Part shown: positions 5 through 12,018 of the stretch, piece by piece | Position numbering within the stretch: position 1 is the first letter of the stretch | Layout: each line of letters begins with the position of its first letter | Source of the DNA: an uncultured Bacteroidota bacterium | Lineage (GTDB): Bacteria > Bacteroidota > Bacteroidia > Bacteroidales > DTGW01 | NCBI GenBank assembly: GCA_963726845.1 | Contig: CAVSGB010000263.1 | Location: forward strand, 1 to 53,993 | Reading direction: 5' to 3' | DNA: 53,993 nt | Position numbers and translations under genes: made by a program | The notes under the pieces: model-generated | Databases searched by the model: none | What the model saw: the letters and a program-made list of their open reading frames with translations, nothing else | What the model was told of the DNA's origin: nothing

Positions 5-1662
5 AGTGTCTGTCCATAAAGTCAACCATTTTCATTTTTCTAATCAAGGGTTTTGATGTTTTTTCTAATTTCCGCTTAGGAATTTATTATCAAAATTGGT
101 TTTAATTTTGATTTTAGTAATTTATAGCTCAAAATTAGCAATTTTGCTTAAAAATGAATGCGTCAGCACATACGTATCCCAATAAATATTTGAATGTTTT
201 CATTTCTATACTTTTATTGTTTGCAACTTGTATTTGTCTAAAAACAAAGCTGTTAACACCCTAAAATTATATGCAATAGCACTCCAGATTATTTTCGACT
301 CGAAATGAGGAAATCCTTTCCAATTGCATGTTGCAATATTAAAGCCTCGTTTCCAGTTCGATATATTGGCTTCTATGCCGCTTCGCCATTTTTTTAGTTG
401 TGTTTCAAGCTTTTTGCTGGATGTTGTATTTTGCAAACTCCCTACTATTTTATTGAATACTATGTTCGCAATGCCCTTATTTTTGCTGAAATTTAAATTA
501 TCTGTACAAGCATAGCCACCATCGGTAGCAATGTCTCTTGGGATTTTCTCGTAATTGGTTTCAACTCTGTTAATTGTTGGTTGATATAATTGTTTATCCG
601 ATGGATTGCCCAATAACGTCTGAATATCAAGTATTAGGTTGCTTCTTCCTGTAGCCAAATTAACTTTGTGCCCAAAGATAACATCACGACTTCCTTTGAC
701 TATTATGTCTGTATGACGTTCAAATATCGAAAATATTTTATCACAGTTCGGTACTGCCTCACCCTTAATCTCTTTGCGATTAGTAATATCATATACTTGT
801 AACAGAGTGTCAATCAATTCATAAAGTTGGGCTTGAATTGCGGTTCCTATCAAAGTCTTTGCTTTTTTTTTAAGAACATTTGATAATTGGTTGATAGTTT
901 TTGAAAAGATAATAAGTTGTTTCTGGAATAACACCAACCGTTTATCATCCGATTTTGTAACATTTATTTTAAAGTACAGCTTTTTCGCTCCCTGTATGTA
1001 GTTGAAATAGTGTACATCTTCTTCCTCTTTTTTTAAAGCTTCTAATAATTGATGGGTTTGTTTAATGCAATCCCATACCAATGCATTATTTGTTGGGTAA
1101 TGTATGTTTGTTTTTACTGTAGTTGAATCTTGACGCAATTTGGAAACATCTTCAAAACCTTCTGAAATAGCTATCTTATTAATGGCTACAAGCAGCTCAT
1201 GTAATGAGGTTGCTGTTATCTTTGAAATATATTTCTGTAATACCTGAAAGCTAAACGGTTCTCTGTCATCGAGCTTAATAAATGTAGAACAGATACGAGA
1301 ATCTTTTTGTGCAAACTCAAGTTCTCTATAATCTAATCCTTTCATTTCTTTAAAAATAGCTGAACGAACAATTTGCTCTACTGTTGGAACATCTTTTCGA
1401 CCAAAATTGCTTTCTTTTTCATTCTTAACAATGTCATTTTTTACTATTTTAATAATATCAGGGTGGGATTCCAATACCGTGTCGATAAGCCCAAATTCAG
1501 GACTTGAAGCCCAATCAGCCTTATTAAACCGCAGCACCCATTCATTAAATATTTTCATAATCAAAATTCTTGTTGTTATGTCAACAAGATACTAATAAAT
1601 TCTTAATTTTGCCCCTTGAAAACCTTGTTTTTATTGATAATTCTATATTAAAGACAGACTCT
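5..1662 (-). mobile_element. IS5/ISNCY-like insertion sequence
   Basis: Imperfect TIRs: AGTGTCTGTCCATAA (5-19) vs reverse complement of right end AGAGTCTGTCTTTAA (1648-1662). AATT on both flanks (1-4, 1663-1666) as probable TSD. Encloses one DDE transposase. Confidence 0.8.
206..1558 (-). CDS. DDE transposase (IS5/ISNCY-type)
   Basis: Motifs DSTTVKTNIHYPT, FGHKVNL, ATDGGY and RSGIEANISNWKRGF (D-D-E). ATG at 1558. Confidence 0.88.
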   Translation of the reverse strand: MKIFNEWVLRFNKADWASSPEFGLIDTVLESHPDIIKIVKNDIVKNEKESNFGRKDVPTVEQIVRSAIFKEMKGLDYRELEFAQKDSRICSTFIKLDDREPFSFQVLQKYISKITATSLHELLVAINKIAISEGFEDVSKLRQDSTTVKTNIHYPTNNALVWDCIKQTHQLLEALKKEEEDVHYFNYIQGAKKLYFKINVTKSDDKRLVLFQKQLIIFSKTINQLSNVLKKKAKTLIGTAIQAQLYELIDTLLQVYDITNRKEIKGEAVPNCDKIFSIFERHTDIIVKGSRDVIFGHKVNLATGRSNLILDIQTLLGNPSDKQLYQPTINRVETNYEKIPRDIATDGGYACTDNLNFSKNKGIANIVFNKIVGSLQNTTSSKKLETQLKKWRSGIEANISNWKRGFNIATCNWKGFPHFESKIIWSAIAYNFRVLTALFLDKYKLQTIKV

Positions 1663-1663
1663 A

Positions 1664-1837
1664 ATTATATTCTTAATTCAAGTTTATGATATTTACATGA
1701 AAGACAAGTTGGATATATCTGCATTTATTAGTGGATTTCTTGTTTTAATAATGATTCAAGTAATATTTAATAAGGACTATAAAGATAATTCTAAACAAAA
1801 TTTAATTTATAGACTTCTGAAAAAATCAAAAAAATAA
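1664..1837 (+). pseudogene. 3' remnant of a small membrane-protein ORF interrupted by the IS
   Basis: Open frame starting at the IS right junction: IIFLIQVYDIYMKDKLDISAFISGFLVLIMIQVIFNK...KKSKK*. Hydrophobic. An internal ATG gives only a ~46-aa product. Confidence 0.4.
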
Positions 1838-1968
1838 TTCATAGTCCTGTTAAGTAAATTCACGATATTATAATACAATTATAAAATTTTGGATTTAGAT
1901 AAACTATAAGTATATAATTTGATTAAATTTAATTAGTATTTTTCAAAAGCTAAGAAAAATAAAATACA

Positions 1969-2105
1969 GCACCCAACATCGGCTCACAAACAATGCGGGG
2001 CGCGGCTTTTATGCAATTTTAGCTCTCGCGTGCAAGGTTTGTAATGTGGGATAATGACGCAGCCACGAACTCCCGCACTATTAGTAGCCGCAAGCGTTGG
2101 CAATA
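1969..2105 (+). repeat. attC-like recombination site / long hairpin repeat, copy 1
   Basis: Begins ACCCAAC (RYYYAAC) and ends GTTGGCAATA. Arms CGGCT(C)AC..TGCGGG / CCCGCA..GTAGCCG pair with one unpaired C. 22 bp identical to copy 2 (2069-2090 = 3041-3062). Confidence 0.72.
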
Positions 2106-2134
2106 ATGTAGAGAATTGTCACATAAAAAACTGA

Positions 2135-2164
2135 TTTGATTTATTTAAAATATTTCTAAATTTG
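2135..2164 (+). promoter_or_regulatory. Bacteroidota-type housekeeping promoter (-33 TTTG / -7 TAnnTTTG)
   Basis: TTTG at 2135-2138 and TAAATTTG at 2157-2164, just upstream of ATG 2169. Spacer of 18 nt is slightly short. Confidence 0.4.
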
Positions 2165-2168
2165 TTGC

Positions 2169-2336
2169 ATGTATAAAGATAAATTAATTACAGGAATAAA
2201 AATTACTCAACAGATGAGTAAAGCAAGGAATATTCTTAATAATCAAGTTATTCCAAGGGAAGAGTTGTTCCAGATTCGGAAAAAAGAAGGGAAACTAAGT
2301 CCTGAACTTATTAAAGCATTAAAAACTAATGCCTGA
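2169..2336 (+). CDS. Small 55-aa protein, putative antitoxin (not in ORF track)
   Basis: MYKDKLITGIKITQQMSKARNILNNQVIPREELFQIRKKEGKLSPELIKALKTNA*. Stop overlaps the start of the zeta-like gene. Confidence 0.6.
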   Translation: MYKDKLITGIKITQQMSKARNILNNQVIPREELFQIRKKEGKLSPELIKALKTNA

Positions 2337-2934
2337 TTTGATAATAATTGCTGGATGCAATGGTGCGGGTAAGTCAACATTTGCTTCTTCTTTTTTACCT
2401 GAGGGATTGAACTCTTTTGATTATGACAGAATATTTTTAGAGAATTATAATAGTTTTCCTGATAGTGAATTGAGAGAAGAATTTGCAAAAAACGAGACAT
2501 CAAAGTACTTTGAGCAATCTATTGACAAGGCATTGGTAAATAAAACAGATTTTTGCTTCGAAACAAATTTTGATGCACATCCATTATATTGGGCAGAAAA
2601 ATTTAGAAAGAATGGATTTCAAATTAATCTGATTTTTTTTTGTTTAGATAATCAGGAAGTAGCAAGACATAGAATCCAGGTACGTACTGAATTTAAAGGC
2701 CTTTTCGTTGATAACGAAACAATTGATTTAAAGTGGAAAGCCGGATATAAAAACACAAATCTTCATTTTCGATTTTTTGACAATATCCTGATTGTTGACA
2801 ATTCAAAACAAAATGAAACTTACACAAATATTCTACAGATTGAAAAAGGGAAAATTATTATGATGACTGATAATATACCAGATTATTTTGAACATCGACT
2901 TCCGGATATTTATAAACTTATTAAGACAAAATAA
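2329..2934 (+). CDS. Zeta-toxin-like P-loop kinase / AAA ATPase
   Basis: N-terminal IIIAGCNGAGKST Walker A, FETN and ARHRIQVR motifs typical of short zeta-toxin-family proteins. Confidence 0.8.
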   Translation: MPDLIIIAGCNGAGKSTFASSFLPEGLNSFDYDRIFLENYNSFPDSELREEFAKNETSKYFEQSIDKALVNKTDFCFETNFDAHPLYWAEKFRKNGFQINLIFFCLDNQEVARHRIQVRTEFKGLFVDNETIDLKWKAGYKNTNLHFRFFDNILIVDNSKQNETYTNILQIEKGKIIMMTDNIPDYFEHRLPDIYKLIKTK

Positions 2935-2939
2935 TGCAC

Positions 2940-3079
2940 TATTGCCAACAGCTGGCTCATACCCAATGCGGGTTTCAGAAGGTTTGCAAACGCAGTGGCA
3001 CGCGTGCACGGCATTACCAGCGGACAATGACGCGCCCCGCACTCCCGCACTATTAGTAGCCGGAGAACGTTGTACACAA
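2940..3079 (+). repeat. attC-like recombination site / long hairpin repeat, copy 2
   Basis: Starts 5 bp after the toxin stop with TATTGCCAAC, the exact reverse complement of GTTGGCAATA at 2096-2105. Same arms and unpaired C as copy 1. Ends GTTGTACACAA. Confidence 0.72.
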
Positions 3080-3367
3080 CCCTCTCTAGCCCAGAAACAG
3101 GATTCATTTCCACAGCTAACGGTGGTGCTTAGAACAGACTTTTATTTTAAATTTGAAGGCCCTATGCAAGGCCGATTTTTGAACTGGTGCGTCATAGCCC
3201 GGGTGCAATCCTGGTTAGAATGTGAAAAGCCCTTCTGATTTAGCAGAAAGGCTTTGAGATGATTTCAGTGGTGGTCACGCCTAAAGCGAGAACCCCGTTC
3301 ATAATATTATCACGTCAAAGATACATTCTCTTAGGGCATTTTTATTAACCAATTAAAAAATGTTTTT
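3080..3367 (+). ncRNA. Candidate IS110 bridge/seek RNA region
   Basis: Lies in the non-coding end of an IS110. More GC-rich than the surroundings, with several stem-loops (CCAC-agctaacg-GTGG; AAAGCC(C)TTCTG..CAGAAAGGCTTT). Expression is inferred only. Confidence 0.5.
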
Positions 3368-4711
3368 ATGACTAAGAAAAATGTATCAATGGAAGTAATC
3401 AACCCAAATGCAGCAGGGATTGATATTGGAAGCCGTTCACACTATGTAGCAATAGGGCAAGGCGATGAAGATGTAAAAGAATTTGGTGTTTATAATGAAG
3501 ATTTACAGGCACTTTCTCAATGGCTATTAGATAATGAAATTAAAACAGTAGCCATGGAAAGTACAGGTACTTATTGGCAAAATCTTTATGCCGTCCTTCA
3601 ATCATCGGGATTAGAAGTAATACTATGCAATGGTAAGTTCACAAAAAACATTAAGGGCAGAAAAAGCGATGTTCAGGACTGTCAATGGATACAGAAGCTT
3701 CACACGTTAGGGTTATTAAGCGGAAGTTTCTTGCCCGATGAAGCAACGGAACATTTAAGGACATACTGCCGCCACCGGTTTAATCTGTTGGAGCAAGCAG
3801 CAGACACTACCCGAAAAATGCAAAAATACTTACGCCTGCTAAATTTGCGATTAGATGTAGTGGTGAAAGATGTAACCGGTTTAACCGGTTTGTCAATTAT
3901 AGAAGCCATCTGCAAAGGAGAAATCAATCCAGGGACACTCGCCTCGCTAAGAAATGGGAACTGTAAAAAATCAGAAGCAGAAATAGCCAAAGCACTTCAA
4001 AACAATGGCAGGAAGGATTATTTATTTGCCCTTAAACACGAATATCAAATGTATTTGAACTTTCAGTCAAAAATAAAAGAGTGTGATGTAGAAATTGAAA
4101 AAATGCTCAATGAACAAATCAATATTGATGATAATAAAAAACAGCATTACATAGATAAAAAGGTTCACAAAAGGGTAAATAAAAATACCCCTAAAAACAT
4201 AGATATTAATTTATTGTCATACCAATATTTTGAAGGCGTTGATTTGCTCGCTATTGAAGGGGTGAGCTATTCAACTGTACTTACCCTTATAAGTGAGGTT
4301 GGGACAGGGATCCATAAATTTCAGTCAGCAAAACAATTTACCAGTTGGCTGAGGCTATCACCTAATAATAAAATTAGCGGTGGAAAAGTATTAAGCAACA
4401 GAATACCTAAAGGTAGCAATAGGCTGAAAATTGCCCTTAGAAACGCTGCAAATTCTATTGGAAATTTAAAAGACACTGCATTGTCGAATTTCTTCAAAAG
4501 AATTGCATTTAGAAAAGGCCGTGTATCTGCCATATCTGCAACAGCAAGAAAGTTGGCTATTATTATTTGGAATATGATAGTAAAAAGAGTTCCTTATAAA
4601 CCAGAAACCGAATACCAATTTCTGGATCAAAAAAGGAAGAAAATAACCCAGATGAAAAAACTAATCACTAAGTTTGATATTACAATTAATGATTTAAGTT
4701 TTCAGCTGTAA
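3368..4711 (+). CDS. IS110-family (DEDD) transposase/recombinase
   Basis: AGIDIGS, VAMESTGTYW and KSDVQDC (DEDD RuvC-like domain). C-terminal LSPNNKISGGKVL and ATARKLA (Transposase_20). Confidence 0.95.
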   Translation: MTKKNVSMEVINPNAAGIDIGSRSHYVAIGQGDEDVKEFGVYNEDLQALSQWLLDNEIKTVAMESTGTYWQNLYAVLQSSGLEVILCNGKFTKNIKGRKSDVQDCQWIQKLHTLGLLSGSFLPDEATEHLRTYCRHRFNLLEQAADTTRKMQKYLRLLNLRLDVVVKDVTGLTGLSIIEAICKGEINPGTLASLRNGNCKKSEAEIAKALQNNGRKDYLFALKHEYQMYLNFQSKIKECDVEIEKMLNEQINIDDNKKQHYIDKKVHKRVNKNTPKNIDINLLSYQYFEGVDLLAIEGVSYSTVLTLISEVGTGIHKFQSAKQFTSWLRLSPNNKISGGKVLSNRIPKGSNRLKIALRNAANSIGNLKDTALSNFFKRIAFRKGRVSAISATARKLAIIIWNMIVKRVPYKPETEYQFLDQKRKKITQMKKLITKFDITINDLSFQL

Positions 4712-4900
4712 ATCTGCAACTTATGAAAACGTTAGTCATAAGTGTAAAAATCGTGCAACTCGACAGATACGTGCAAAATTGAGAGACTGATAAGCGTAAT
4801 TTAGCTCTTTGATAGGTTGGTGCAAATTGGATGAATTTATTTTGTTTTTTTCTTCCCGCTTTTGCCCTTTTGGGGCAATTAGGACGAGTCAATAGCAACC

Positions 4901-4976
4901 CCAACCCACATTGCAGCACATTTGCAAGCCCACACAAGCCGACCCGCAGACCAAAGGCTTGCAAAAGAGCTGCAAT
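4901..4976 (+). repeat. Structured hairpin repeat family B, copy 1
   Basis: Stem TTGCAGC-ac-aTTTGCAAGCC ... GGCTTGCAAAa-ga-GCTGCAA. Loop CACAAGCC..AC..ACCAAA shared with 9645-9722. Confidence 0.65.
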
Positions 4977-5093
4977 TTTGCCGATGCACACAGTGCTGTT
5001 AATAACTTCCTGACAACAAATCAAAAATTTATTTTCCGAATTCAATCCATCTTTGTAATTTTGACAAAAAGATTCAAAACAAAAAGATTCAAA

Positions 5094-5399
5094 ATGGACA
5101 ACTTTGGGGATACCATCAGGAAGTTAAGGGAAGAAAAGGAATTGCCATTGCGGACAGTTGCTGCTTATCTTGACATTGACCAAGCTATTTTAAGTAAGAC
5201 AGAACGTGGACAACGTAAAGCGACACGGGAGCAAATTGTAAAACTTGCAGAGTTTTTTAAGGTGAAAGAAGATGATTTATTGATCGCGTGGCTTTCGGAT
5301 AAATTGGTTTATGAAGTGGCAGACGAACAAATTGCATTGAAAGCATTGCAGGTAGCAGAGGAGAAAGTAAAGTATATTAATAAAAATAAGAAAATATAA
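5094..5399 (+). CDS. XRE-family HTH regulator (possible R-M controller)
   Basis: MDNFGDTIRKLREEKELPLRTVAAYLDIDQAILSKTERGQRKATREQ is an HTH_3 signature. True start is probably ATG 5094. 4 bp upstream of mod. Confidence 0.85.
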   Translation: MDNFGDTIRKLREEKELPLRTVAAYLDIDQAILSKTERGQRKATREQIVKLAEFFKVKEDDLLIAWLSDKLVYEVADEQIALKALQVAEEKVKYINKNKKI

Positions 5400-5403
5400 A
5401 AAC

Positions 5404-7131
5404 ATGCCAGCACTCCATTTCAAAGGGAAAACATTTGTACAAAACCACCATTTGGCGGTTAAGTTTCATCAATTAGTGCCGAAAAAAGAATTGAGTTTAA
5501 CCGACAAAGTTTCATTGCACGATAACCTTATTATACAAGGAGACAATCTGAAAGCATTGAAGGCATTGCTTCCAACTTATGCCGGAAAGATTAATTGCAT
5601 TTTTATTGACCCTCCATATAATACGGGCAATGACATTGCTGAAGGTAAAGGTTGGATTTACAATGACAATGTAAACAGTCCAATGATAAAAGAATGGTTA
5701 GGTAAAGAGGTTAACCTAGAAGATTTAACAAGGCACGATAAATGGCTTTGTATGATGATGCCAAGATTAAAATTATTAAGAGAACTTTTACACGAAAATG
5801 GTGCAATATTCATTACACTTGATGACATTGAAATCCATAGATGTAAACTTTTGATGGATGAGATTTTCGGCGAGGAAAATATCGTTTCAAACATCGTATG
5901 GCAAGCAAGAAAATCCGTTCAGAATGATACTGATATAAGTTCTTCTCATAATCACGTTTTAGTTTATGCAAAAAATCGGAGACAAGAAGAAAGAAGATTG
6001 AAGAAAAGCAATGTTAAGAAATGGCATACAATGGATGGCTTTGTCTTTAATCCACTAGAATTGGACAAATCTAAATTTTCAAATCCCGATAAAGACCCAA
6101 GAGGATTATGGAAGGCTGACCCTTTTGATGCACCTGGTATTCGTAAAAACTTAGAATATGATATTGTAAATCCTAATACAGGTGAAGTTTACACACCACC
6201 AAAAGGAAGACATTGGGGAAACGAAGAGAAAAACTATTTAGCTTTCTTAAAAGACAATAGAATACTTTTTGGCAAATCTGGTAAAAGTGGACCGCAATTA
6301 AAAGTATTTTGGGATGAGAAAAAAGAGTTTGGCGAAATTGAAACAACTTGGTGGGGTGAGGGTGCAATGGAAACTTATATTGAGGATGGAATTGATGAAG
6401 AAACAGCAGAAAAGTTTACAAGCTATGGTACAACAACAAAGGGTTCTCAATTACTTCAAAAAATATTTAATGGTGAAAAGGTTTTTAATAACCCAAAACC
6501 GATAGAACTGCTTAAACACATACTTAAAATAGCAACAAAAAAGGATGCTATAATTCTTGACAGCTTTGCTGGCTCAGGAACTACTGCACACGCAGTTTTG
6601 GACTTAAACAAAGAAGATGAAGGCAATCGAAAATTTATTTTAGTAGAAATGGAAAATTACGCCAATTCCATTACGGCAGAGAGAGTTCGGAGAGTAATTA
6701 AAGGTGTAAAGACTGCAAAAGAAGATTTTTTGAAAAACGGATTAGCTGGCACGTTTAGTTATTTTGAGTTAGGTGAAACCATAGAAATGGAAAATTTGCT
6801 TAAAGGAAAAAACTTACCTTCATTTACAGAGTTTGCTCGCTATCTTTTTTACACAGCCACAGGCGAAGAATTCAACGAAAAATTAGTAAATGAAAAAACT
6901 GGTTTTATAGGTGAGAGCATAAATTATGAAGCATATCTATTTTACAAACCCGATTTGGAATGGTTGAAGAAAAACGCTTTGACATTAGAACTTTGCAAGT
7001 CATTACCTAAACATAATGGTAAACAGCGTTTAGTTTTCGCACCTGCAAAATATGTTGATGATATTACTTTGCTGGAACATAGAATTGACTTTTGCCAGTT
7101 ACCTTATGAAATTTACAGGATACAGAAATGA
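5404..7131 (+). CDS. mod: Type III R-M adenine methyltransferase (Mod)
   Basis: GDNLKALK, IFIDPPYNTG, PKPIELL and ILDSFAGSGTTAHAV motifs (beta-class N6 MTase). Overlaps res by 4 bp (ATGA). Confidence 0.92.
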   Translation: MPALHFKGKTFVQNHHLAVKFHQLVPKKELSLTDKVSLHDNLIIQGDNLKALKALLPTYAGKINCIFIDPPYNTGNDIAEGKGWIYNDNVNSPMIKEWLGKEVNLEDLTRHDKWLCMMMPRLKLLRELLHENGAIFITLDDIEIHRCKLLMDEIFGEENIVSNIVWQARKSVQNDTDISSSHNHVLVYAKNRRQEERRLKKSNVKKWHTMDGFVFNPLELDKSKFSNPDKDPRGLWKADPFDAPGIRKNLEYDIVNPNTGEVYTPPKGRHWGNEEKNYLAFLKDNRILFGKSGKSGPQLKVFWDEKKEFGEIETTWWGEGAMETYIEDGIDEETAEKFTSYGTTTKGSQLLQKIFNGEKVFNNPKPIELLKHILKIATKKDAIILDSFAGSGTTAHAVLDLNKEDEGNRKFILVEMENYANSITAERVRRVIKGVKTAKEDFLKNGLAGTFSYFELGETIEMENLLKGKNLPSFTEFARYLFYTATGEEFNEKLVNEKTGFIGESINYEAYLFYKPDLEWLKKNALTLELCKSLPKHNGKQRLVFAPAKYVDDITLLEHRIDFCQLPYEIYRIQK

Positions 7132-9641
7132 AGCTAAAGCACTATCAGGAAAAAGTTTTAAAGGAACTGAAAGTTTATTTGAGTTCCTTGTCTGACTTCA
7201 AAGCTAAATACGAAAAGGCATTGGAGTTTGATGCTGATATGGCAAGGGACTACAATTTCCCTAAGCATGCCTGGGAACAAAGTACAGGAAGAATAATATA
7301 TTATTCTAAAACAAACGGACTACACGAACCGCTCCCCGATATTTATCTTAAAGTGCCGACAGGTGGAGGAAAAACGTTGGTGGCTTGTCACGCTATTGAT
7401 TATATTCAAAAATCTTTTTTAAAAAAACAAGCAGGACTGGTATTGTGGATTGTGCCTTCTACACAAATTTACAGGCAAACAATTTCAGCATTAAAAAACC
7501 GTGAACATCCATATAGGCAAATCCTTGATATTTCAAGCGGAGGCAGAACACTCATCAAAGAAAAAACTGAAATGTTCAATCGTTTGGATGTGGACGAACA
7601 TCTTGTTGTATTAATTTTGATGCTGCCTTCTGCAAATCGCCTGAACAGAGAAACACTTAAAGTTTTCAGGGATGCGGGAGGTTTTACAGATTTTTTCCCG
7701 CCTGAAGATAATTATCCTGCACAAGAGGCATTAGTCAAACTTATTCCAAATTTAGATTGCTTCACAACAGAAGGAGAAGTTTTCGGAATACAAATAAAAA
7801 CTTCGCTCGGAAATACTTTAAAATTATTGAAACCGCTTGTGATAATTGACGAGGGGCACAGGGCATACGGAGAACAGGCAAGAAACACAGTAAGAAATTT
7901 TAATCCTTCTTTTATTCTTGAACTTTCGGCAACACCACCACCAAACAGCAATGAGTTGGTGAAAATAACTGGGCGTGAATTGCACGAAGAAGAAATGATA
8001 AAATTAGACATCCATCTTACCAATAAAACAAGTTTAGATTGGCAGGATACAATGTTGGCGAGTTATGAAAAAAGAAACGAGTTAGAAAAGAAAGCAAAAG
8101 AATATGAAGGCAAAACAGGTGAATATATCCGCCCTATTTGCCTGATACAGGCGGAACGCACAGGAAAAGACCAACGGGAAAAGAATTTCATACACGCAGA
8201 AGATGTTAAAGAATTTTTAATCAAGAAATGTAACATTCCTGAAAAGCATATTGCAATTAAATCAAGTGAGAAAGACGATATTGAAGGAATTAATTTGTTT
8301 GCTCCCGATTGCGACATACGCTACATCATTACCAAACAGGCATTGCAAGAGGGTTGGGATTGTTCTTTTGCTTACATTCTTACCATTCTGACAAATCCAG
8401 CATCATCAACAGGGATTACACAATTAGTCGGAAGAATTTTAAGACAACCCTTTGCACGAAAAACAAAAATCAAAGAATTGGACGAGTGTTACGTTTATAC
8501 ATTCCGTCAGAACGCAAGCGCATTGGTAAGAGAAATAAAATTGGGTTTAGAAGATGAAGGGCTTGGCGACATTGCCGGCAGAGTTGTAAACGATGAAGGT
8601 GATGCAGGTGAAGGAATACTAAAAGACAGGGACACAAAGTATCGTGTTGGCTTCAAAAAATATGAAGGGAAAATTTATTTGCCAAAATTTGTAATGCAGG
8701 AAAAAGGAAGTTGGCGTGATATGAATTTTGAAGTGGATATATTAAGTGAAATTAATTGGGAAACCGTCAATATTTATGAACTAAAAAATATTTCCCTACA
8801 AAAGAAAAAAGACAAGGAACAGGAAATTGTTTTGGGTTTGAGTGATGAAAAAAAAGAATTGCTGAAAGAAACAGGAAGAGCAGAAAAAACAGGAGCATTA
8901 GAAATTGATGAAGTGTTTTTAACGAGACAAATTACCGAGATAATTCCGAACCCGTGGATTTGCTACCAATTAGGTGTCAAAGCAGTGGAAATGGTTTTAC
9001 AAAAATACGACCACAACACAGTTGCATCAAATTTTGTTTTCGTAATTGAAGAACTAAAAAAGATTTTAGATAATGAGCGAAACCGATTATCAGAGCAGGT
9101 TTTCAGAAAATTGATTGAAAAGAAAAAATTACTTTTCTTTCTTCTTACTGATATAGGAGGTTTTGTTCTTCCATCAAGAATAAAAGTGAAAAGCAACAAA
9201 CAGTTGGTTCGTAACGATAACACACCAATTCAAAAATCGTTGTTTGACTATGTTCCCGAAGAAAATATTAACGATCTCGAAAAATCCGTTGCCATTTATC
9301 TTGACGAACAGGAAAAGCTTTTATGGTGGTATCGCAATATGAGCAGACAGGACTATCACATACAAGGATGGAAGCGACACAAAATTTATCCTGACTTCAT
9401 TGCAGCAGATAAGAAAAAAGATAAAGACGACTACGAAACAGTTTATGTGCTTGAGACAAAAGGCATACACTTGAAAAATGAGGACACAAAATATAAACAG
9501 GATGTTTTCAAACTTTGCAATGAATTAGGAGCAAAGAAACCTTGGAAAGAATTGTTTAACGAGTTTCCCGACCATGACTTTGAATTTCAGGTTGTGTTTG
9601 AGGACGAGTGGCAGAATAAAATTAACCAACTAATTGGATGA
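7128..9641 (+). CDS. res: Type III R-M restriction subunit (Res), SF2 helicase + nuclease
   Basis: VPTGGGKT, IIDEGH, LSAT, LQEGWD, QLVGRILR, and C-terminal YPDF..LETKG PD-(D/E)xK motif. Confidence 0.9.
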   Translation: MKLKHYQEKVLKELKVYLSSLSDFKAKYEKALEFDADMARDYNFPKHAWEQSTGRIIYYSKTNGLHEPLPDIYLKVPTGGGKTLVACHAIDYIQKSFLKKQAGLVLWIVPSTQIYRQTISALKNREHPYRQILDISSGGRTLIKEKTEMFNRLDVDEHLVVLILMLPSANRLNRETLKVFRDAGGFTDFFPPEDNYPAQEALVKLIPNLDCFTTEGEVFGIQIKTSLGNTLKLLKPLVIIDEGHRAYGEQARNTVRNFNPSFILELSATPPPNSNELVKITGRELHEEEMIKLDIHLTNKTSLDWQDTMLASYEKRNELEKKAKEYEGKTGEYIRPICLIQAERTGKDQREKNFIHAEDVKEFLIKKCNIPEKHIAIKSSEKDDIEGINLFAPDCDIRYIITKQALQEGWDCSFAYILTILTNPASSTGITQLVGRILRQPFARKTKIKELDECYVYTFRQNASALVREIKLGLEDEGLGDIAGRVVNDEGDAGEGILKDRDTKYRVGFKKYEGKIYLPKFVMQEKGSWRDMNFEVDILSEINWETVNIYELKNISLQKKKDKEQEIVLGLSDEKKELLKETGRAEKTGALEIDEVFLTRQITEIIPNPWICYQLGVKAVEMVLQKYDHNTVASNFVFVIEELKKILDNERNRLSEQVFRKLIEKKKLLFFLLTDIGGFVLPSRIKVKSNKQLVRNDNTPIQKSLFDYVPEENINDLEKSVAIYLDEQEKLLWWYRNMSRQDYHIQGWKRHKIYPDFIAADKKKDKDDYETVYVLETKGIHLKNEDTKYKQDVFKLCNELGAKKPWKELFNEFPDHDFEFQVVFEDEWQNKINQLIG

Positions 9642-9755: not shown

Positions 9756-11181
9756 TACAGCAAATATGATTGTTTTACCTATTTCACTGGTAATTGGATC
9801 ACGTAAGGCATTTTCTAAAAAGGTTTGACAAAAAACACGATTGGTCTTATCTGAGAAAAATTTCTTTTCAAAATCACTTGAAATGAAAGTTTCTGTTTCC
9901 TCTCCATCTTCTGTAGCAAGTACAACCGAATAACCTTCATCTGAAAGTAATTGGGTAGTAATTTCAGTACGGGCATCTAAAACTCTAGGATTAATCAAGA
10001 AACCATCTTTAACACCATCCAATAATGAATATCGAAATGTTGGGTCGTTGCCTTCACAACCAAAAGTTGTATAAGTATCACGCAACATCCGGCGTTCTAT
10101 TTCCCGTGGGTCGTTTTCTTTTATCTTATCAGGGTTAACACCTTTTAAATAGTCTTTGGGTGTAGCGGTTAAACCCAATTTATATCCATGAAAATATTCA
10201 AATACTGCTCTGGCGTTTCCAGAAATAGAACGGTGCGATTCGTCCGAAATAATTAAATCAAAATCGGTTGGTGAAAACTCATAGCGGTATTTATTATCAA
10301 ACATGAGCGATTGAATGGTTGTAACTACAATATCTGCTTTTCTCCAATCGCTTTTATGCTCTTTGAAAATGAAAGTTGAATAGTCAGGCTTCAGGTAATT
10401 TGTAAAAGCTTTCCAGGCTTGGTCTTCCAATTCCAATCTGTCAACCAAAAACAAAACCTTTCGTGCGTTTTTAGTTCTTAAAAATAACCGAATTACTGCT
10501 GCAGATGTTAGCGTTTTACCAGTACCCGTTGCCATCTCGAAAAGGAAACGGTCTTTGCCTTTTCTTACTGCTTTTTGCAAATGCTCGATAGCATTTAATT
10601 GGTATTTACGAAGGAATTTTAATTTGTTATTCCAAATAAAGTCTTTGCTCTTTTCGATACTTCCATTCCAACCAGGCCTTTCAATATAATCTGGCATTTG
10701 AACAACAACAATATAATCATTGTCTACAGGCTCATTTACTAGACTATTGCGATCGGGATTCCATTCTTTTATTGCACCTATTTCAATAGGTGAAGGAAAT
10801 TTATAAATAGGTTTTGGATTACCTTTTTTTAAATCCCATAAGTAATGAACTATTCCATTTGAGAGAATGATAAATTGAGCTCCAACATTATTTGCATACT
10901 TCCTTGCTTGTTCTTTAGCAGCCAGAGGATGCAAACTTTCTTTCTTAGCGTTCGAGAACGCAAATCGGTTTATTATCGCTGTCAACAAGTAAAAAATCAA
11001 GTGAACCCGATTTAGTTTTTTCATAATCGTTGCCCCATGCATCAACTTCCTTTTGAGTGATTTTTACATGGTTCTCAAGCAAGATATTAGCTGAACCTAA
11101 ATCATCATCAAAAAATCGCCAGCCAGCTTCTTCAAGTAGGCGGTTTATTTTTATTCGTGCTTGTGCTTCGTTGTTTAACAA
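9756..11181 (-). pseudogene. hsdR: Type I R-M restriction subunit (EcoKI/EcoAI-like HsdR), 3'-truncated
   Basis: NEAQARIKINRLLEEAGW N-terminus, MATGTGKT, DESH and GLTATP motifs. Recognisable sequence stops after GKTIIFAV at ~9756. +1 frameshift at ~10950 (VLE/AKK). Confidence 0.85.
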
Positions 11182-11262
11182 AATTCAGATAAGGTTAATC
11201 TTGACCACTAAAGTAGCAAAAAGAAGTCAAATGAATTTTGACTTACACATACAATTTATAAA

Positions 11263-11345
11263 TGAACTACCCCGCTGCAAGCAGACGGGGTATCAAATCC
11301 CAACTTTACAAGCGATATTCGATGCAAACAGCGGGGAATTTACCC
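11263..11345. repeat. Palindromic REP/PATE-like element resembling IS200/IS605 end hairpins
   Basis: TACCCCGCTGC-AA-GCAGACGGGGTA hairpin (11268-11292) plus a degenerate second copy ending CAGCGGGGAATTTACCC. Confidence 0.5.
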
Positions 11346-11358
11346 AAAAAAAATTAAA

Positions 11359-11755
11359 TTATTTCGATGGAAATATTGTTTCTTTTCCAATAAAAGGAAG
11401 ATCAACCATGGACTTATATATGTCTAAAACTTCTGCCATACTTTCATCGTCGAGTTCGTAATACCAATTAACTACAATATCGTATTTTTCTTTAAAAATA
11501 ATTTCCAATTCTTTTAAAAGCTCTAAAATGAGTTTAGAAGCACTTGTACTAAAATATTCCAGCTTAAGATTAACAGTTGTTTTTTTGCAGGGTGTTTTGC
11601 TATACAATTTAACCCAGTTTATCAATGGAAGGAAAAACATTTTCGTATCTTCCGGGATTACCCTCCCAGCCATTTCTATCAGAACCCTTGTCAGCATCAA
11701 AATAAACTGAAGGTGTTTTTGATGTTTCTTGCAATTTTAATATTTCCACAATCAT
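11359..11755 (-). CDS. siaC: SiaC-family (DUF1987) regulatory phosphoprotein, frameshifted near 11684
   Basis: Upstream frame MIVEILKLQETSKTPSVYFDADKG joins LIEMAGRVIPED..LEYFSTSASK..VNWYYELDDESM. Confidence 0.75.
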
Positions 11756-11918
11756 TACTATTTATAACAATACAAATTATTATTTATTCCCCTTTTTTTG
11801 TCAAACTGTATTCATATGCAATTATAACTAAACGTTTTCGGTTACTAAAAGTTCGGCAATATTATTTTTCACTTCAAGAGAAATTAATTCCTTTTTATAT
11901 TAGTGAATGTTTTTGCTG

Positions 11919-12016
11919 GAGCGACTTTGATTCCCGACAATAACTCTTGTGCAGAGTACAAATTTTGATAATCCACAAAACCCAGAATTGGTTGGGAGCA
12001 ACCGTTGTTGGGAGCC
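11919..12016 (-). repeat. Degenerate, truncated third attC-like copy
   Basis: Minus strand CTCCCAACAACGG(TTG)CTCCCAACCAATTCTGGG...AATTTGTACTCTGCACAAG...GTCGGGAAT aligns with copy 1. Starts 2 bp after the stop at 12019. Right arm missing. Confidence 0.5.
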
Positions 12017-12018
12017 AT

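What the first reader, a model, noticed from the sequence alone, without database searches (positions are those of the whole stretch)
1969..3079. Integron-like (attC-type) gene-cassette system in a Bacteroidota chromosome
Seen: two ~135-bp direct repeats (1969-2105, 2940-3079). Each starts ..CCAAC, ends GTT.., folds into a long imperfect hairpin with one unpaired top-strand C 8-9 nt after AAC, and they share 22 identical bp. The bases after GTT of copy 1 (GTTGGCAATA) are the exact reverse complement of the start of copy 2 (TATTGCCAAC), not of copy 1's own start (GCACCCAAC). Known: this offset complementarity is the signature of an integrated circular integron cassette, and the unpaired C corresponds to the bottom-strand extrahelical G of attC sites. 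Inference: 2097-3069 is a mobile cassette of an attC-like system with no integrase in the window, in a phylum where such arrays are poorly characterised.
Basis: partly seen in the sequence, partly recalled or inferred. Interest (0 to 1): 0.85.

Follow-up and report, generated by a model that had tools for sequence, protein, structure and literature searches.

The report
Integron-type gene cassettes in Bacteroidota
The two repeats are genuine integron-style recombination sites bounding a mobile toxin–antitoxin-like gene cassette, and they belong to a very large cassette system of Bacteroidota that seems to be run by an unusual integrase that standard integron searches would not recognise.

Summary
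Observation confirmed; interpretation supported and extended. The repeats at 1969-2105 and 2940-3079 belong to a family of 193 copies on 58 contigs of this genome. The copies lie in co-oriented arrays with a median of 892 nt between them. The bases after GTT of one copy complement the bases before AAC of the next copy in 70 of 104 adjacent pairs. Another 27 pairs fit with a one-base shift. Only 3 of 161 copies complement their own start. The hairpin shows compensatory changes at 13 of 20 pairs and keeps a conserved extrahelical C.

No canonical integron integrase was found in this genome (76% complete) or in a closed relative with at least 150 copies. Instead, an IntI/XerA-like tyrosine recombinase sits just upstream of such arrays, in the same orientation, in many Bacteroidota. 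It lacks the IntI-specific insertion and carries 1-3 novel N-terminal repeats. An attI-like GTT junction follows its stop codon by 34-320 nt. This genome has a copy on contig C375.

Two other mobile elements target these sites: IS110-family elements (one at window 3077-4742) and a 22-24 kb integrative element. Verdict: a new variant of the integron kind. Recombination itself is inferred, not shown.

The parts
206..1564 (-). ISNCY-family transposase gene (452 aa). An insertion sequence at the contig start, upstream of copy 1. It probably interrupts the array and the assembly.
   Evidence: ORF; Pfam DDE_Tnp_1; NCBIfam transpos_ISNCY_1 340.2 bits (cut-off 325)
1565..1968 (+). Remnant of the cassette that ends in copy 1. 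It holds only a 46-aa ORF (1697-1837). Its 5' part is presumably displaced by the ISNCY element.
   Evidence: ORF list; no Pfam family; position inferred
1969..2105 (+). attC-type site, copy 1. R'' arm ends in AAC (1975-1977), extrahelical C at 1985, L''/L' stem, GTT at 2096-2098. Bases 2097-2105 already belong to the next cassette.
   Evidence: R1 115.7 bits; covariation
2097..3069 (+). One integrated gene cassette of 973 bp, from the TT of copy 1's GTT to the G of copy 2's GTT. Its first bases complement the R'' arm of its own site (copy 2). The cassette body is unique in this genome.
   Evidence: uniqueness
2169..2336 (+). 55-aa ORF overlapping the start of the next ORF by 8 nt. Candidate antitoxin or partner. 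No family.
   Evidence: no Pfam or NCBIfam match; role inferred from position
2329..2934 (+). 201-aa P-loop protein, Zeta_toxin-like kinase. The cassette's cargo.
   Evidence: Pfam PF06414 Zeta_toxin 39.2 bits (cut-off 22.3), E 6.8e-10
2940..3079 (+). attC-type site, copy 2. AAC 2947-2949, extrahelical C at 2958, GTT 3069-3071.
   Evidence: R1 97.1 bits
3077..4742 (+). IS110-family insertion sequence inserted 5 nt after the GTT of copy 2, in the same orientation. It has a 291-nt non-coding left part (3077-3367) and a transposase gene at 3368-4711.
   Evidence: Pfam DEDD_Tnp_IS110 and Transposase_20; NCBIfam transpos_IS110 220.9 bits; ends set by comparison with the copy on C265
11823..12018 (-). 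Solitary, degenerate attC-type site in the opposite orientation.
   Evidence: R1 40.7 bits, E 2e-08; sequence

Best explanation
The two repeats are attC-type recombination sites of an integron-like gene-cassette system. The segment 2097-3069 is one integrated cassette, carrying a small ORF plus a Zeta_toxin-like kinase.

Each site folds, as a single strand, into an imperfect hairpin:
- An outer R box (…AAC / GTT…).
- An asymmetric unpaired spacer.
- An L stem with a conserved extrahelical C on the top strand (G on the bottom strand) and two conserved mismatches.

A tyrosine recombinase cuts at or next to the G|TT of the R box. As a result, the bases after GTT always belong to the next cassette.

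The most likely recombinase is not a canonical IntI. It is a Bacteroidota family of IntI/XerA-like enzymes with these features:
- It lacks the IntI-specific insertion.
- It has 1-3 N-terminal beta-beta-alpha-beta-beta-alpha repeats.
- It lies directly upstream of arrays, in the same orientation.
- An attI-like site follows its stop codon.
- This genome has a copy on contig C375, broken by a frameshift in an A-run.

The window holds the distal piece of such an array. An ISNCY element cuts it on one side and an attC-targeting IS110 element on the other.

Shown: the site family, the arrays, the offset rule, the covariation, the position of the recombinase and the attI junctions. Inferred: catalysis by this recombinase, which strand reacts, circular intermediates, and present-day activity.
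For: (1) Site family and arrays.
- 193 copies on 58 contigs, in co-oriented runs.
- 127 inter-site segments, median 892 nt. In 80 of the 89 segments of 1500 nt or less, the longest ORF is co-oriented with the site.

(2) Cassette boundaries.
- 70 of 104 adjacent pairs fit the offset rule in register.
- By my reading of that listing, 27 of the other 34 fit with a one-base shift.

(3) Structure.
- 13 of 20 pairs have compensatory changes and 96% of cells are paired.
- The extrahelical C is present in 105 of 116 copies.
- The A after AAC is present in 116 of 116, and the A·C mismatch columns in 114-115 of 116.

(4) Mobility.
- One 573-nt cassette occurs four times, between different neighbours each time.

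(5) Recombinase.
- It heads arrays in G044 and G016, and it is followed by an attI-like junction and a first ORF on G000:C375.
- In 80 loci found with the family profile, R1 finds co-oriented sites downstream in 12, all from Bacteroidota.
- By N-terminal extension: 10 of the 37 loci with an extension of 60 aa or more have such sites, and 16 more run out of contig within 2 kb. Only 2 of 43 loci without the extension do, and both are split matches of family members.

(6) attI.
- In 11 of 14 loci, a GTT whose next 7 bases match 6-7 of 7 with the complement of the first site's R'' arm lies after the stop codon. The distance is 34-320 nt in 10 loci and 857 nt in one.

(7) The recombinase lacks the IntI insertion (alignment; the match to IntI4 2a3v is split). 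Its best solved relatives are XerA and IntI4.

(8) Co-occurrence.
- All 16 of the 61 relatives that have the N-terminal domain also have R1 sites. None of the 10 genomes without sites has it.
Against: - No experiment or read-level evidence of excision or integration is available.
- The closed relative G006 has at least 150 sites, but its single family member lies about 0.56 Mb from the nearest array listed. None of its array heads examined (L051, L053, L055) carries a recombinase of this family.
- Several site-rich genomes (G007, G013, G023, G035, G037, G038) gave no match to the N-terminal domain.
- 11 family loci with 2 kb or more of downstream sequence have no R1 site. Of the 6 of these I checked for repeats, only L086 showed a long repeat.
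- The copy in this genome is frameshifted and its contig has a GC-rich, possibly chimeric tail.
- R1 was trained on this genome's sites and misses divergent ones.
- Related genomes are not independent samples.
- Canonical IntI genes do exist in the order (8 over the cut-off, 9 at E <= 1e-50, of 401 genomes). Action in trans cannot be excluded.
Confidence: 0.7

Rival explanations
1. These are ordinary integron cassettes recombined by a canonical IntI. The arrays are CALINs (clusters of attC sites lacking an integrase) whose IntI is unassembled, lost, or acts in trans.
For: - The sites have all the structural hallmarks of attC.
- This genome is only 76% complete.
- Canonical IntI genes occur in the same order: 8 of 401 genomes over the TIGR02249 cut-off, mostly at contig ends.
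- CALINs are about as common as complete integrons in RefSeq (PMC9024848, passages read).
Against: - None of 13 tyrosine-recombinase matches in this genome passes the cut-off. The best reach 115 and 99 bits against a cut-off of 265.
- tblastn with a relative's IntI and a scan for the IntI patch motif found nothing.
- The closed genome G006 has at least 150 sites but only 10 tyrosine recombinases, none an IntI.
- No R1 site was found in the loci held around the 9 IntI matches, i.e. up to 1.5 kb each side or to the contig end.
- IntI-positive genomes carry 0-30 R1 sites that mostly do not form arrays.
- 3 of the 9 IntI matches contain a stop codon, and others are truncated or partial.
Confidence: 0.14
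2. Cassette movement is carried out by the housekeeping Xer recombinases of the host. This would resemble Xer-exploiting integrative elements or the pdif modules of Acinetobacter plasmids (both recalled), with no dedicated integrase.
For: - The closest solved relatives of the candidate recombinase are Xer proteins (XerA 5hxy, 142 bits).
- G006 has four short Xer-like recombinases (open frames of 298-383 aa), none of them near the arrays.
- Many site-rich genomes lack the N-terminally extended family.
Against: - The sites are hairpins of about 140 nt in direct orientation with an AAC/GTT R box. They are not 28-bp dif-like sites.
- A dedicated recombinase with an attI junction directly after its stop codon heads arrays in many genomes. 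Chromosome-dimer resolution would not need that.
Confidence: 0.08
3. The cassette integrase is the CTnDOT/NBU-type integrase (Arm-DNA-bind_5, Phage_int_SAM_5 and Phage_integrase domains) found next to array ends in this genome (C121) and in G006.
For: - It lies divergent from arrays at three places, about 170 nt from a half site that ends exactly at GTT.
- It is 94-95% identical between two genera.
Against: - It is the end gene of an element of 22-24 kb. The far end of that element carries the other part of the split site: model positions 1-114 there against 95-124 near the integrase, a 20-nt overlap typical of an att core.
- The element therefore sits inside an array rather than heading it.
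- Homologues at E <= 1e-40 occur in only 5 of 61 relatives.
- It travels with an HTH_17 protein and a primase-helicase-like (VapE/PriCT) protein, like an integrative mobile element.
Confidence: 0.03
4. The repeats are REP-like or terminator/sRNA elements with no role in recombination.
For: - They are GC-rich hairpins placed after genes in an AT-rich genome.
- IS110-family elements are also known to target REP sequences (PMC11187229, passages read).
Against: - Offset complementarity between neighbouring copies has no explanation without recombination at GTT.
- The same cassette occurs in four different contexts.
- attI junctions follow a recombinase gene.
- No Rfam family matches.
Confidence: 0.02

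Closest known systems
Sedentary chromosomal integrons (e.g. the Vibrio superintegron with its VCR-type attC sites)
   Same: - Long arrays of short, mostly co-oriented ORFs, each followed by a site of about 120-140 nt.
- The sites are similar in sequence within a genome.
- R''/R' AAC…GTT boxes, an extrahelical base, and the crossover at G|TT.
- Cargo rich in toxin-antitoxin and defence genes: PIN, Fic, HTH_3, DRT-type and methylase hits.
- Array orientation follows the replichore in the one closed genome sampled. The Vibrio parallel is recalled.
   Different: - The recombinase at the array head lacks the IntI insertion, which is reported as essential for integron function (PMC8138268, passage read).
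- It has novel N-terminal repeats.
- It is transcribed in the same direction as the cassettes.
- Its attI lies after its stop codon rather than upstream of a divergent gene.
Integron integrase IntI (TIGR02249; VchIntIA/IntI4, PDB 2a3v)
   Same: - About 34% identity over the core.
- Phage_int_SAM_4 plus a catalytic domain.
- IntI4 is among the two best solved matches by sequence and by fold.
   Different: - On the intact G044 protein, TIGR02249 was not scored. The frameshifted G000 copy gives 114 + 107 bits against the cut-off of 265.
- The insertion of about 40 residues is absent.
- There is an N-terminal extension of about 90-290 residues.
'Inverted' integron integrases of Spirochaetes, Chlorobi and Cyanobacteria (recalled from the literature, not read here)
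   Same: The integrase gene has the same orientation as the cassettes.
   Different: As I recall, those are canonical IntI proteins with the insertion. Their relation to this family was not tested.
CALIN (cluster of attC sites lacking an integron integrase; IntegronFinder category)
   Same: Taken alone, the window is exactly this: two sites 972 nt apart with no integrase nearby.
   Different: CALINs are usually read as decayed integrons. Here the arrays are huge, order-wide, and linked to a different recombinase.
IS1111-attC group insertion sequences (ISKpn4, ISPst6)
   Same: DEDD-transposase elements that insert at one end of attC sites in one orientation (PMC11187229, passages read). Here 6 of 6 IS110-family copies do so.
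   Different: The long non-coding region lies upstream of the transposase gene (3077-3367), as in IS110-type elements. In the IS1111 members described there it lies downstream.

Membership tests
Integron (IntI + attI + attC cassettes) | attC: an imperfect hairpin with R''/R' (…AAC / GTT…) and L''/L' boxes and extrahelical bases | tested here: met
   AAC and GTT are present in 114-116 of 116 copies. The L stem is 95.5% paired, with 13 covarying pairs. The extrahelical C is present in 105 of 116.
Integron (IntI + attI + attC cassettes) | Cassette boundary inside the R' box: the bases after G|TT belong to the next cassette | tested here: met
   70 of 104 adjacent pairs fit in register, against 3 of 161 self comparisons. 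By my reading of the listing, 27 more fit with a one-base shift.
Integron (IntI + attI + attC cassettes) | Arrays of short cassettes with ORFs co-oriented with the sites | tested here: met
   Median of 892 nt between sites. 80 of 89 short segments have a co-oriented longest ORF.
Integron (IntI + attI + attC cassettes) | An integrase of the IntI family carrying the IntI-specific insertion | tested here: not met
   No TIGR02249 match over 265 bits in G000 or G006. The array-head recombinase lacks the insertion.
Integron (IntI + attI + attC cassettes) | An attI site next to the integrase gene, where the first cassette begins | tested here: met
   Met for the non-canonical recombinase only. 11 of 14 loci have a matching GTT junction, 34-320 nt after the stop codon in 10 and 857 nt in one.
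Integron (IntI + attI + attC cassettes) | Sites detected by IntegronFinder's attC covariance model | not testable with these tools
   That model is not in Rfam and the program is not available here.
Integron (IntI + attI + attC cassettes) | Demonstrated excision and integration of cassettes | not testable with these tools
   The read-mapping tool could not be reached. The only indirect evidence is one cassette found in four contexts.
CALIN | At least 2 attC sites clustered with no integron integrase nearby | tested here: met
   Window sites start at 1974 and 2953. No tyrosine-recombinase match on contig C263.
IS110 family, attC-targeting | DEDD transposase, with site- and orientation-specific insertion at attC | tested here: met
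   NCBIfam transpos_IS110 220.9 bits. 6 of 6 copies lie 5 nt or 7-8 nt after GTT, co-oriented.
IS1111-attC group | Non-coding (seekRNA) region downstream of the transposase gene, with subterminal inverted repeats | tested here: not met
   291 nt of non-coding sequence lie upstream of the gene and only 31 nt downstream. Subterminal repeats were not examined.
Rfam RNA families (including the Bacteroidetes motifs held there) | Covariance-model match at the gathering score | tested here: not met
   0 matches in the whole window. No match overlapping the repeats except a 12-bit chance-level hit (ST7-OT4_3) at E <= 10.
Xer/dif-type modules | Short dif-like sites (about 28 bp) bound by XerC/XerD and flanking the modules | tested here: not met
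   The sites are hairpins of about 140 nt in direct orientation. The definition of the family is recalled.

The most novel reading that the evidence does not exclude
Bacteroidota carry their own lineage of integrons.
- Arrays reach at least 150 cassettes, on the scale of Vibrio superintegrons.
- Their integrase never had, or has lost, the IntI insertion that grips the extrahelical bases.
- Instead it reads the folded attC and attI with tandem N-terminal modules that bind DNA by its structure. These modules are faintly HARP/XPB/MutS-like.
- Because integron finders require the IntI insertion, the whole lineage would have been filed as orphan attC clusters or missed altogether.
- The attC sites have become a habitat for at least two other site-specific mobile elements: IS110-type elements and a 22-24 kb integrative element.
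Probability: 0.5. Interest if true: 0.9.

Novelty: new variant of a known kind. Interest (0 to 1): 0.8.

Why it matters
Integrons are the textbook device for capturing and shuffling genes. Current surveys find them overwhelmingly in Proteobacteria: 93% of complete integrons are in Gammaproteobacteria. For Bacteroidetes, those surveys report only In0 elements and one complete integron, in Salinibacter (PMC9024848, passages read).

This case points to a much larger presence in Bacteroidota:
- An attC-type site family occurs in 51 of 61 genomes sampled from one order.
- A matching recombinase family occurs in 41 of 401 genomes sampled from the phylum.
- That family has more than 4,700 database relatives, named only 'XerD' or 'site-specific integrase'.

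If the recombinase works as proposed, three things follow:
- Recognition of folded attC does not need the IntI insertion.
- A new DNA-recognition module becomes available for study.
- A large pool of cassettes (toxin-antitoxin, defence, secreted proteins) opens up in a phylum important in gut, soil and marine systems.

Tried and rejected
- Rfam at gathering and at permissive thresholds: nothing relevant.
- Single-sequence DNA folding: not better than shuffles, so I relied on covariation instead.
- Canonical IntI: searched by family model in the own genome, in 61 relatives and in 401 genomes of the order, and by tblastn and a motif scan. It is present in few genomes and no R1 site was found in the short loci held around those genes.
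- CTnDOT-type integrase at array ends: first taken as a candidate cassette integrase with a half-site attI. Rejected after the other part of the split site was found at the far end of a 22-24 kb element.
- L136 and L105, where R1 sites lie upstream and divergent from a short recombinase: L136's recombinase is followed by an ORF I read, from memory and without a family search, as an IS91-like transposase, and the pair sits inside an array. Neither recombinase is an IntI.
- nhmmer alone was too insensitive outside the order. The covariance model was used instead.
- Repeat search downstream of 6 family loci that have no R1 site: only L086 shows a 119-nt repeat.
- N-terminal domain: no Pfam or NCBIfam family. 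The ESM Atlas gives only Bacteroidota hypothetical proteins at scores of 0.81-0.84. Foldseek against the PDB gives no hit at E <= 0.001.
- The look-up of sequencing runs was unreachable five times, so read laying was never used.
- Literature: six full-text searches found no description of such arrays or of this recombinase in Bacteroidota. Subscription journals and supplementary tables were not searchable and may hold relevant IntegronFinder output.
Full report
THE OBSERVATION

- Copy 1 spans 1969-2105, with AAC at 1975-1977 and GTT at 2096-2098.
- Copy 2 spans 2940-3079, with AAC at 2947-2949 and GTT at 3069-3071.
- They share an exact 22-nt run inside a 29-nt match and align over their full length.
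- The ten bases from GTT of copy 1 are the exact reverse complement of the first ten bases of copy 2. They are not the complement of copy 1's own start.
- An unpaired C lies 8 nt (copy 1) or 9 nt (copy 2) after AAC.

Rfam holds no family that matches: 0 hits at gathering score in the whole window and none relevant at E <= 10. Folding each copy alone is no better than folding shuffled sequence, so the hairpin had to be tested by comparing copies.

A LARGE FAMILY IN ARRAYS

- The window is the whole of contig C263 of a 376-contig, 4.76-Mb assembly with 35% G+C, rated 76% complete.
- Iterated nhmmer found 193 copies on 58 contigs. Most lie in co-oriented runs of up to 12 copies.
- There are 127 segments between neighbouring co-oriented copies, with a median length of 892 nt.
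- In 80 of the 89 segments of 1500 nt or less, the longest ORF points the same way as the site.

THE CASSETTE SIGNATURE

For every adjacent co-oriented pair of complete copies, I compared the 8 bases after GTT of the upstream copy with the complement of the 8 bases before AAC of the downstream copy.

| Comparison | Matching at 6 or more of 8 |
|---|---|
| Adjacent pairs | 70 of 104 |
| Each copy against itself | 3 of 161 |
| Adjacent pairs, order reversed | 2 of 104 |
| Random pairs | 110 of 5000 |

Reading the printed list, 27 of the 34 low-scoring pairs are the same word displaced by one base. The other seven do not fit, and one of those has an IS110 element inserted. The sequence after GTT therefore belongs to the next cassette, as it does in integrons.

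One 573-nt cassette occurs four times, each time between different neighbours. The body of the window's own cassette is unique in the genome.

STRUCTURE OF THE SITE

I aligned 116 distinct copies (alignment A2).
- RNAalifold predicts the L stem, with compensatory changes at 11 of 13 pairs.
- For a 20-pair structure that I wrote out (AAC/GTT plus the L stem), 96.0% of cells pair, against 32-38% when the partners are slid by 1-3 columns.
- 13 pairs change on both sides, in 351 cells, and 0 of 500 shuffles reach this.

The conserved imperfections are as follows:
- The extrahelical C is present in 105 of 116 copies.
- The A after AAC is present in 116 of 116.
- An A opposite a variable base occurs in 107 of 116.
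- An A·C mismatch occurs in 114-115 of 116.
- The spacer is asymmetric, about 2-3 nt on one side against about 6 on the other.

A top-strand extrahelical C means a bottom-strand G. From memory, that corresponds to the extrahelical G of classical attC sites.

WHICH RECOMBINASE? CANONICAL IntI IS NOT THE ANSWER

- The integron-integrase model TIGR02249 gives 13 matches in this genome. None exceeds the 265-bit cut-off.
- tblastn with a relative's IntI and a scan for the IntI patch motif found nothing.
- A covariance model of the sites (R1) finds them in 51 of 61 related genomes, including all 9 genomes of the same family.
- Only 1 of those 61 genomes has an IntI over the cut-off. Across the order, 8 of 401 genomes do, and 9 match at E <= 1e-50.
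- Three of the nine IntI matches contain a stop codon, and others are N-terminally truncated or partial.
- No R1 site was found in the loci held around these IntI genes, up to 1.5 kb each side or to the contig end. Their genomes carry 0-30 mostly scattered sites.
- The closed relative G006 has at least 150 sites (the scoring cap), in five blocks between 1.72 and 2.72 Mb. It has just ten tyrosine recombinases, none of them an IntI.

A FALSE LEAD THAT TURNED OUT TO BE A SECOND PARASITE OF THE SITES

Two of G006's recombinases (404 aa, 94% identical to each other) lie divergent from array ends. So does a 94-95% identical gene on this genome's contig C121. Each is preceded by the 3' half of a site, and the conserved DNA stops exactly at GTT.

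These are CTnDOT/NBU-type integrases. Each is followed by an HTH_17 protein and a primase-helicase-like (VapE/PriCT) protein. The missing part of the site lies 22-24 kb away, at the far end of a segment that is 97% identical between the two G006 copies:
- Site positions 1-114 lie at the far end.
- Site positions 95-124 lie next to the integrase.
- The two parts overlap by 20 nt.

This is an integrative element inserted into a site, so it splits one array into two. Close homologues occur in only 5 of 61 relatives.

THE RECOMBINASE THAT HEADS THE ARRAYS

The best TIGR02249 matches that fall below the cut-off belong to longer proteins.
- In G044, a 548-aa gene lies directly upstream of a four-site array, in the same orientation.
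- In G016, two tandem genes of the family head an array of 11 sites found by nhmmer.
- In this genome, the gene on C375 is followed by a GTT junction and a first ORF before the contig ends.

The family has these properties:
- A Phage_int_SAM_4 domain plus a catalytic domain.
- About 34% identity to the order's canonical IntI over the core.
- None of the roughly 40 residues of the IntI insertion.
- A match to IntI4 (2a3v) that is split around that gap. XerA (5hxy) scores slightly higher.

A profile of nine members recovered 80 loci from one-genome-per-species contigs. R1 finds co-oriented sites downstream of the gene in 12 of them, all from Bacteroidota. These are Bacteroidales MAGs, Alkalitalea, Winogradskyella, Flavobacterium, a Flavobacteriaceae strain, Aquiflexum, Pontibacter, Lewinella and others.

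Sorted by N-terminal extension:

| Loci | R1 sites downstream | No site, under 2 kb of contig left | No site, 2 kb or more left |
|---|---|---|---|
| 37 with an extension of 60 aa or more | 10 | 16 | 11 |
| 43 without the extension | 2 (both split matches of family members) | 8 | 33 |

AN attI-LIKE SITE

In 14 loci, I took the R'' arm of the first site and looked between the recombinase stop codon and that site for GTT followed by the arm's complement.
- In 11 loci the best candidate matches 6-7 of 7 bases.
- It lies 34-320 nt after the stop codon in 10 loci and 857 nt after it in one.
- The context is recurrent: …TATA..A-GTT preceded by short inverted repeats.
- With 9-46 GTT triplets per region, I estimate chance would give such a match in a few per cent of loci.
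- Three loci gave no convincing junction.
- The C375 copy shows the same arrangement.

CO-OCCURRENCE AND SPREAD

- A profile of the N-terminal region alone finds the family in 16 of the 61 relatives. All 16 have R1 sites. None of the 10 genomes without sites has the family.
- Among the 17 genomes with 13 or more sites at the cap, 10 have it. Among the other 44, 6 do.
- These genomes are related to each other, so the counts are descriptive only.
- Across the phylum, the N-terminal profile matches 41 of 401 sampled genomes, in 23 of 180 genera.
- One of these is a closed genome (G568). There the gene is followed by co-oriented sites at about 3, 15 and 21 kb. The offset rule holds across a 12-kb segment.
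- Public databases hold 4,769 relatives at E <= 1e-20 among the candidates scored. They are named only tyrosine-type recombinase, XerD or site-specific integrase.

THE N-TERMINAL REPEATS

- AlphaFold models place three beta-beta-alpha-beta-beta-alpha(-beta) modules, each with pLDDT of about 80-89, ahead of the core.
- No Pfam or NCBIfam family covers them. There are only weak HARP and DUF5710 hits.
- The ESM Atlas returns only Bacteroidota hypothetical proteins.
- Foldseek against the PDB finds nothing at E <= 0.001.
- Among the weak hits are the SMARCAL1 HARP domain, XPB N-terminal domains, MutS and the T4 MotA C-terminal domain.
- Reading them as structure-specific DNA-binding modules that stand in for the IntI insertion is a hypothesis, not a result.

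IS110 ELEMENTS TARGET THE SAME SITES

All six IS110-family copies in this genome lie immediately 3' of a site and in its orientation.
- Three copies of one type start 5 nt after GTT.
- Three copies of a second type start 7-8 nt after GTT.
- The window's element runs from 3077 to 4742, by comparison with its twin on C265.

This parallels the IS1111-attC elements that target one end of attC sites (PMC11187229, passages read). Here, however, the long non-coding region is upstream of the transposase gene.

CARGO

- The window's cassette carries a 55-aa ORF with no family and a Zeta_toxin-like P-loop protein.
- Among 60 of the 85 cassette ORFs extracted from other arrays, Pfam finds HTH_3 (4), Por_Secre_tail (3), PIN (2), Fic (2), DNA methylases, a PD-(D/E)XK nuclease and assorted enzymes.
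- PADLOC finds DRT-type reverse transcriptase, PD-Lambda-2, SoFic and methyltransferase models.

WHAT REMAINS OPEN

- No recombination event has been observed. The tool for public reads could not be reached.
- In G006 the only family member is far from the arrays, and several site-rich genomes show none. Either the recombinase acts in trans, or many arrays are orphaned, or another enzyme takes part.
- The copy in this genome is frameshifted in an A-run. This may be an assembly error.

LITERATURE

- IntegronFinder 2.0 reports that Bacteroidetes had only In0 elements earlier, and that one complete integron was found in Salinibacter ruber (PMC9024848, passages).
- Reviews list Bacteroidota among the phyla with integrons, without detail (PMC8618304 and PMC9668308, passages).
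- Taxon-specific attC models cover eleven taxa, none of them Bacteroidota (PMC8352920, passages).
- Six full-text searches found no description of this system. Supplementary tables and subscription journals could not be checked.

Noticed in passing
window 3077-4742; also G000 contigs C265, C90, C1, C220: Two types of IS110-family element insert 5 nt or 7-8 nt after the GTT of attC-type sites, always co-oriented (6 of 6 copies). The 291-nt region upstream of the transposase gene would be the place to look for a guide (bridge) RNA matching the site.
   Followed up: partly
G006 (loci L054, L158 and L052, L159); G000 contig C121 7682-14679 (L030): A 22-24 kb integrative element with a CTnDOT-type integrase, an HTH_17 protein, a primase-helicase-like protein and a TonB-dependent receptor. 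It is inserted into the L' arm of a site, with a 20-nt duplicated core. Its integrase is 94-95% identical between two genera.
   Followed up: yes
window 4911-9641: Directly after the IS110 element lie an XRE-type HTH gene, a DNA methylase (N6_N4_Mtase) and an 837-aa ORF. This looks like a type III restriction-modification module. The naming of the 837-aa ORF is my reading and was not searched.
   Followed up: no
window 11823-12018 (-): A solitary, degenerate attC-type site in the opposite orientation, far from any array.
   Followed up: partly
G006, loci at 1.71-2.11 Mb and 2.67-2.71 Mb: Arrays on the minus strand lie where plus-strand GC skew is negative (7 loci). The plus-strand array lies where the skew is positive (2 loci). 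The cassette coding strand therefore appears to be the leading strand on both sides of a skew switch. This rests on a few short samples only.
   Followed up: partly
G000 contig C375 (L077) 7560-7575 and 8600-8938: The array-head recombinase of this genome is split by a one-base frameshift in an A-run. The last 340 nt or so of the contig are 58% G+C against about 30% before them, which suggests a chimeric contig end.
   Followed up: partly
L136 (Prolixibacteraceae MAG) 9893-11970: A short tyrosine recombinase is followed by an ORF that I read as an IS91-like transposase (from memory, not searched). The pair sits inside an array of R1-type sites, which may make it a third kind of element living in these arrays.
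   Followed up: no
G000 contig C321 688-6766: Two arrays are mirror images of each other, with sites 140 nt apart at the centre. This is either an inversion or an assembly artefact.
   Followed up: no
G000 arrays, listing: In about a quarter of cassettes (27 of 104 by my reading), the R' arm has one extra base between GTT and the complement of R'' (mostly T, sometimes C or A). That would leave an unpaired base inside the R box.
   Followed up: partly
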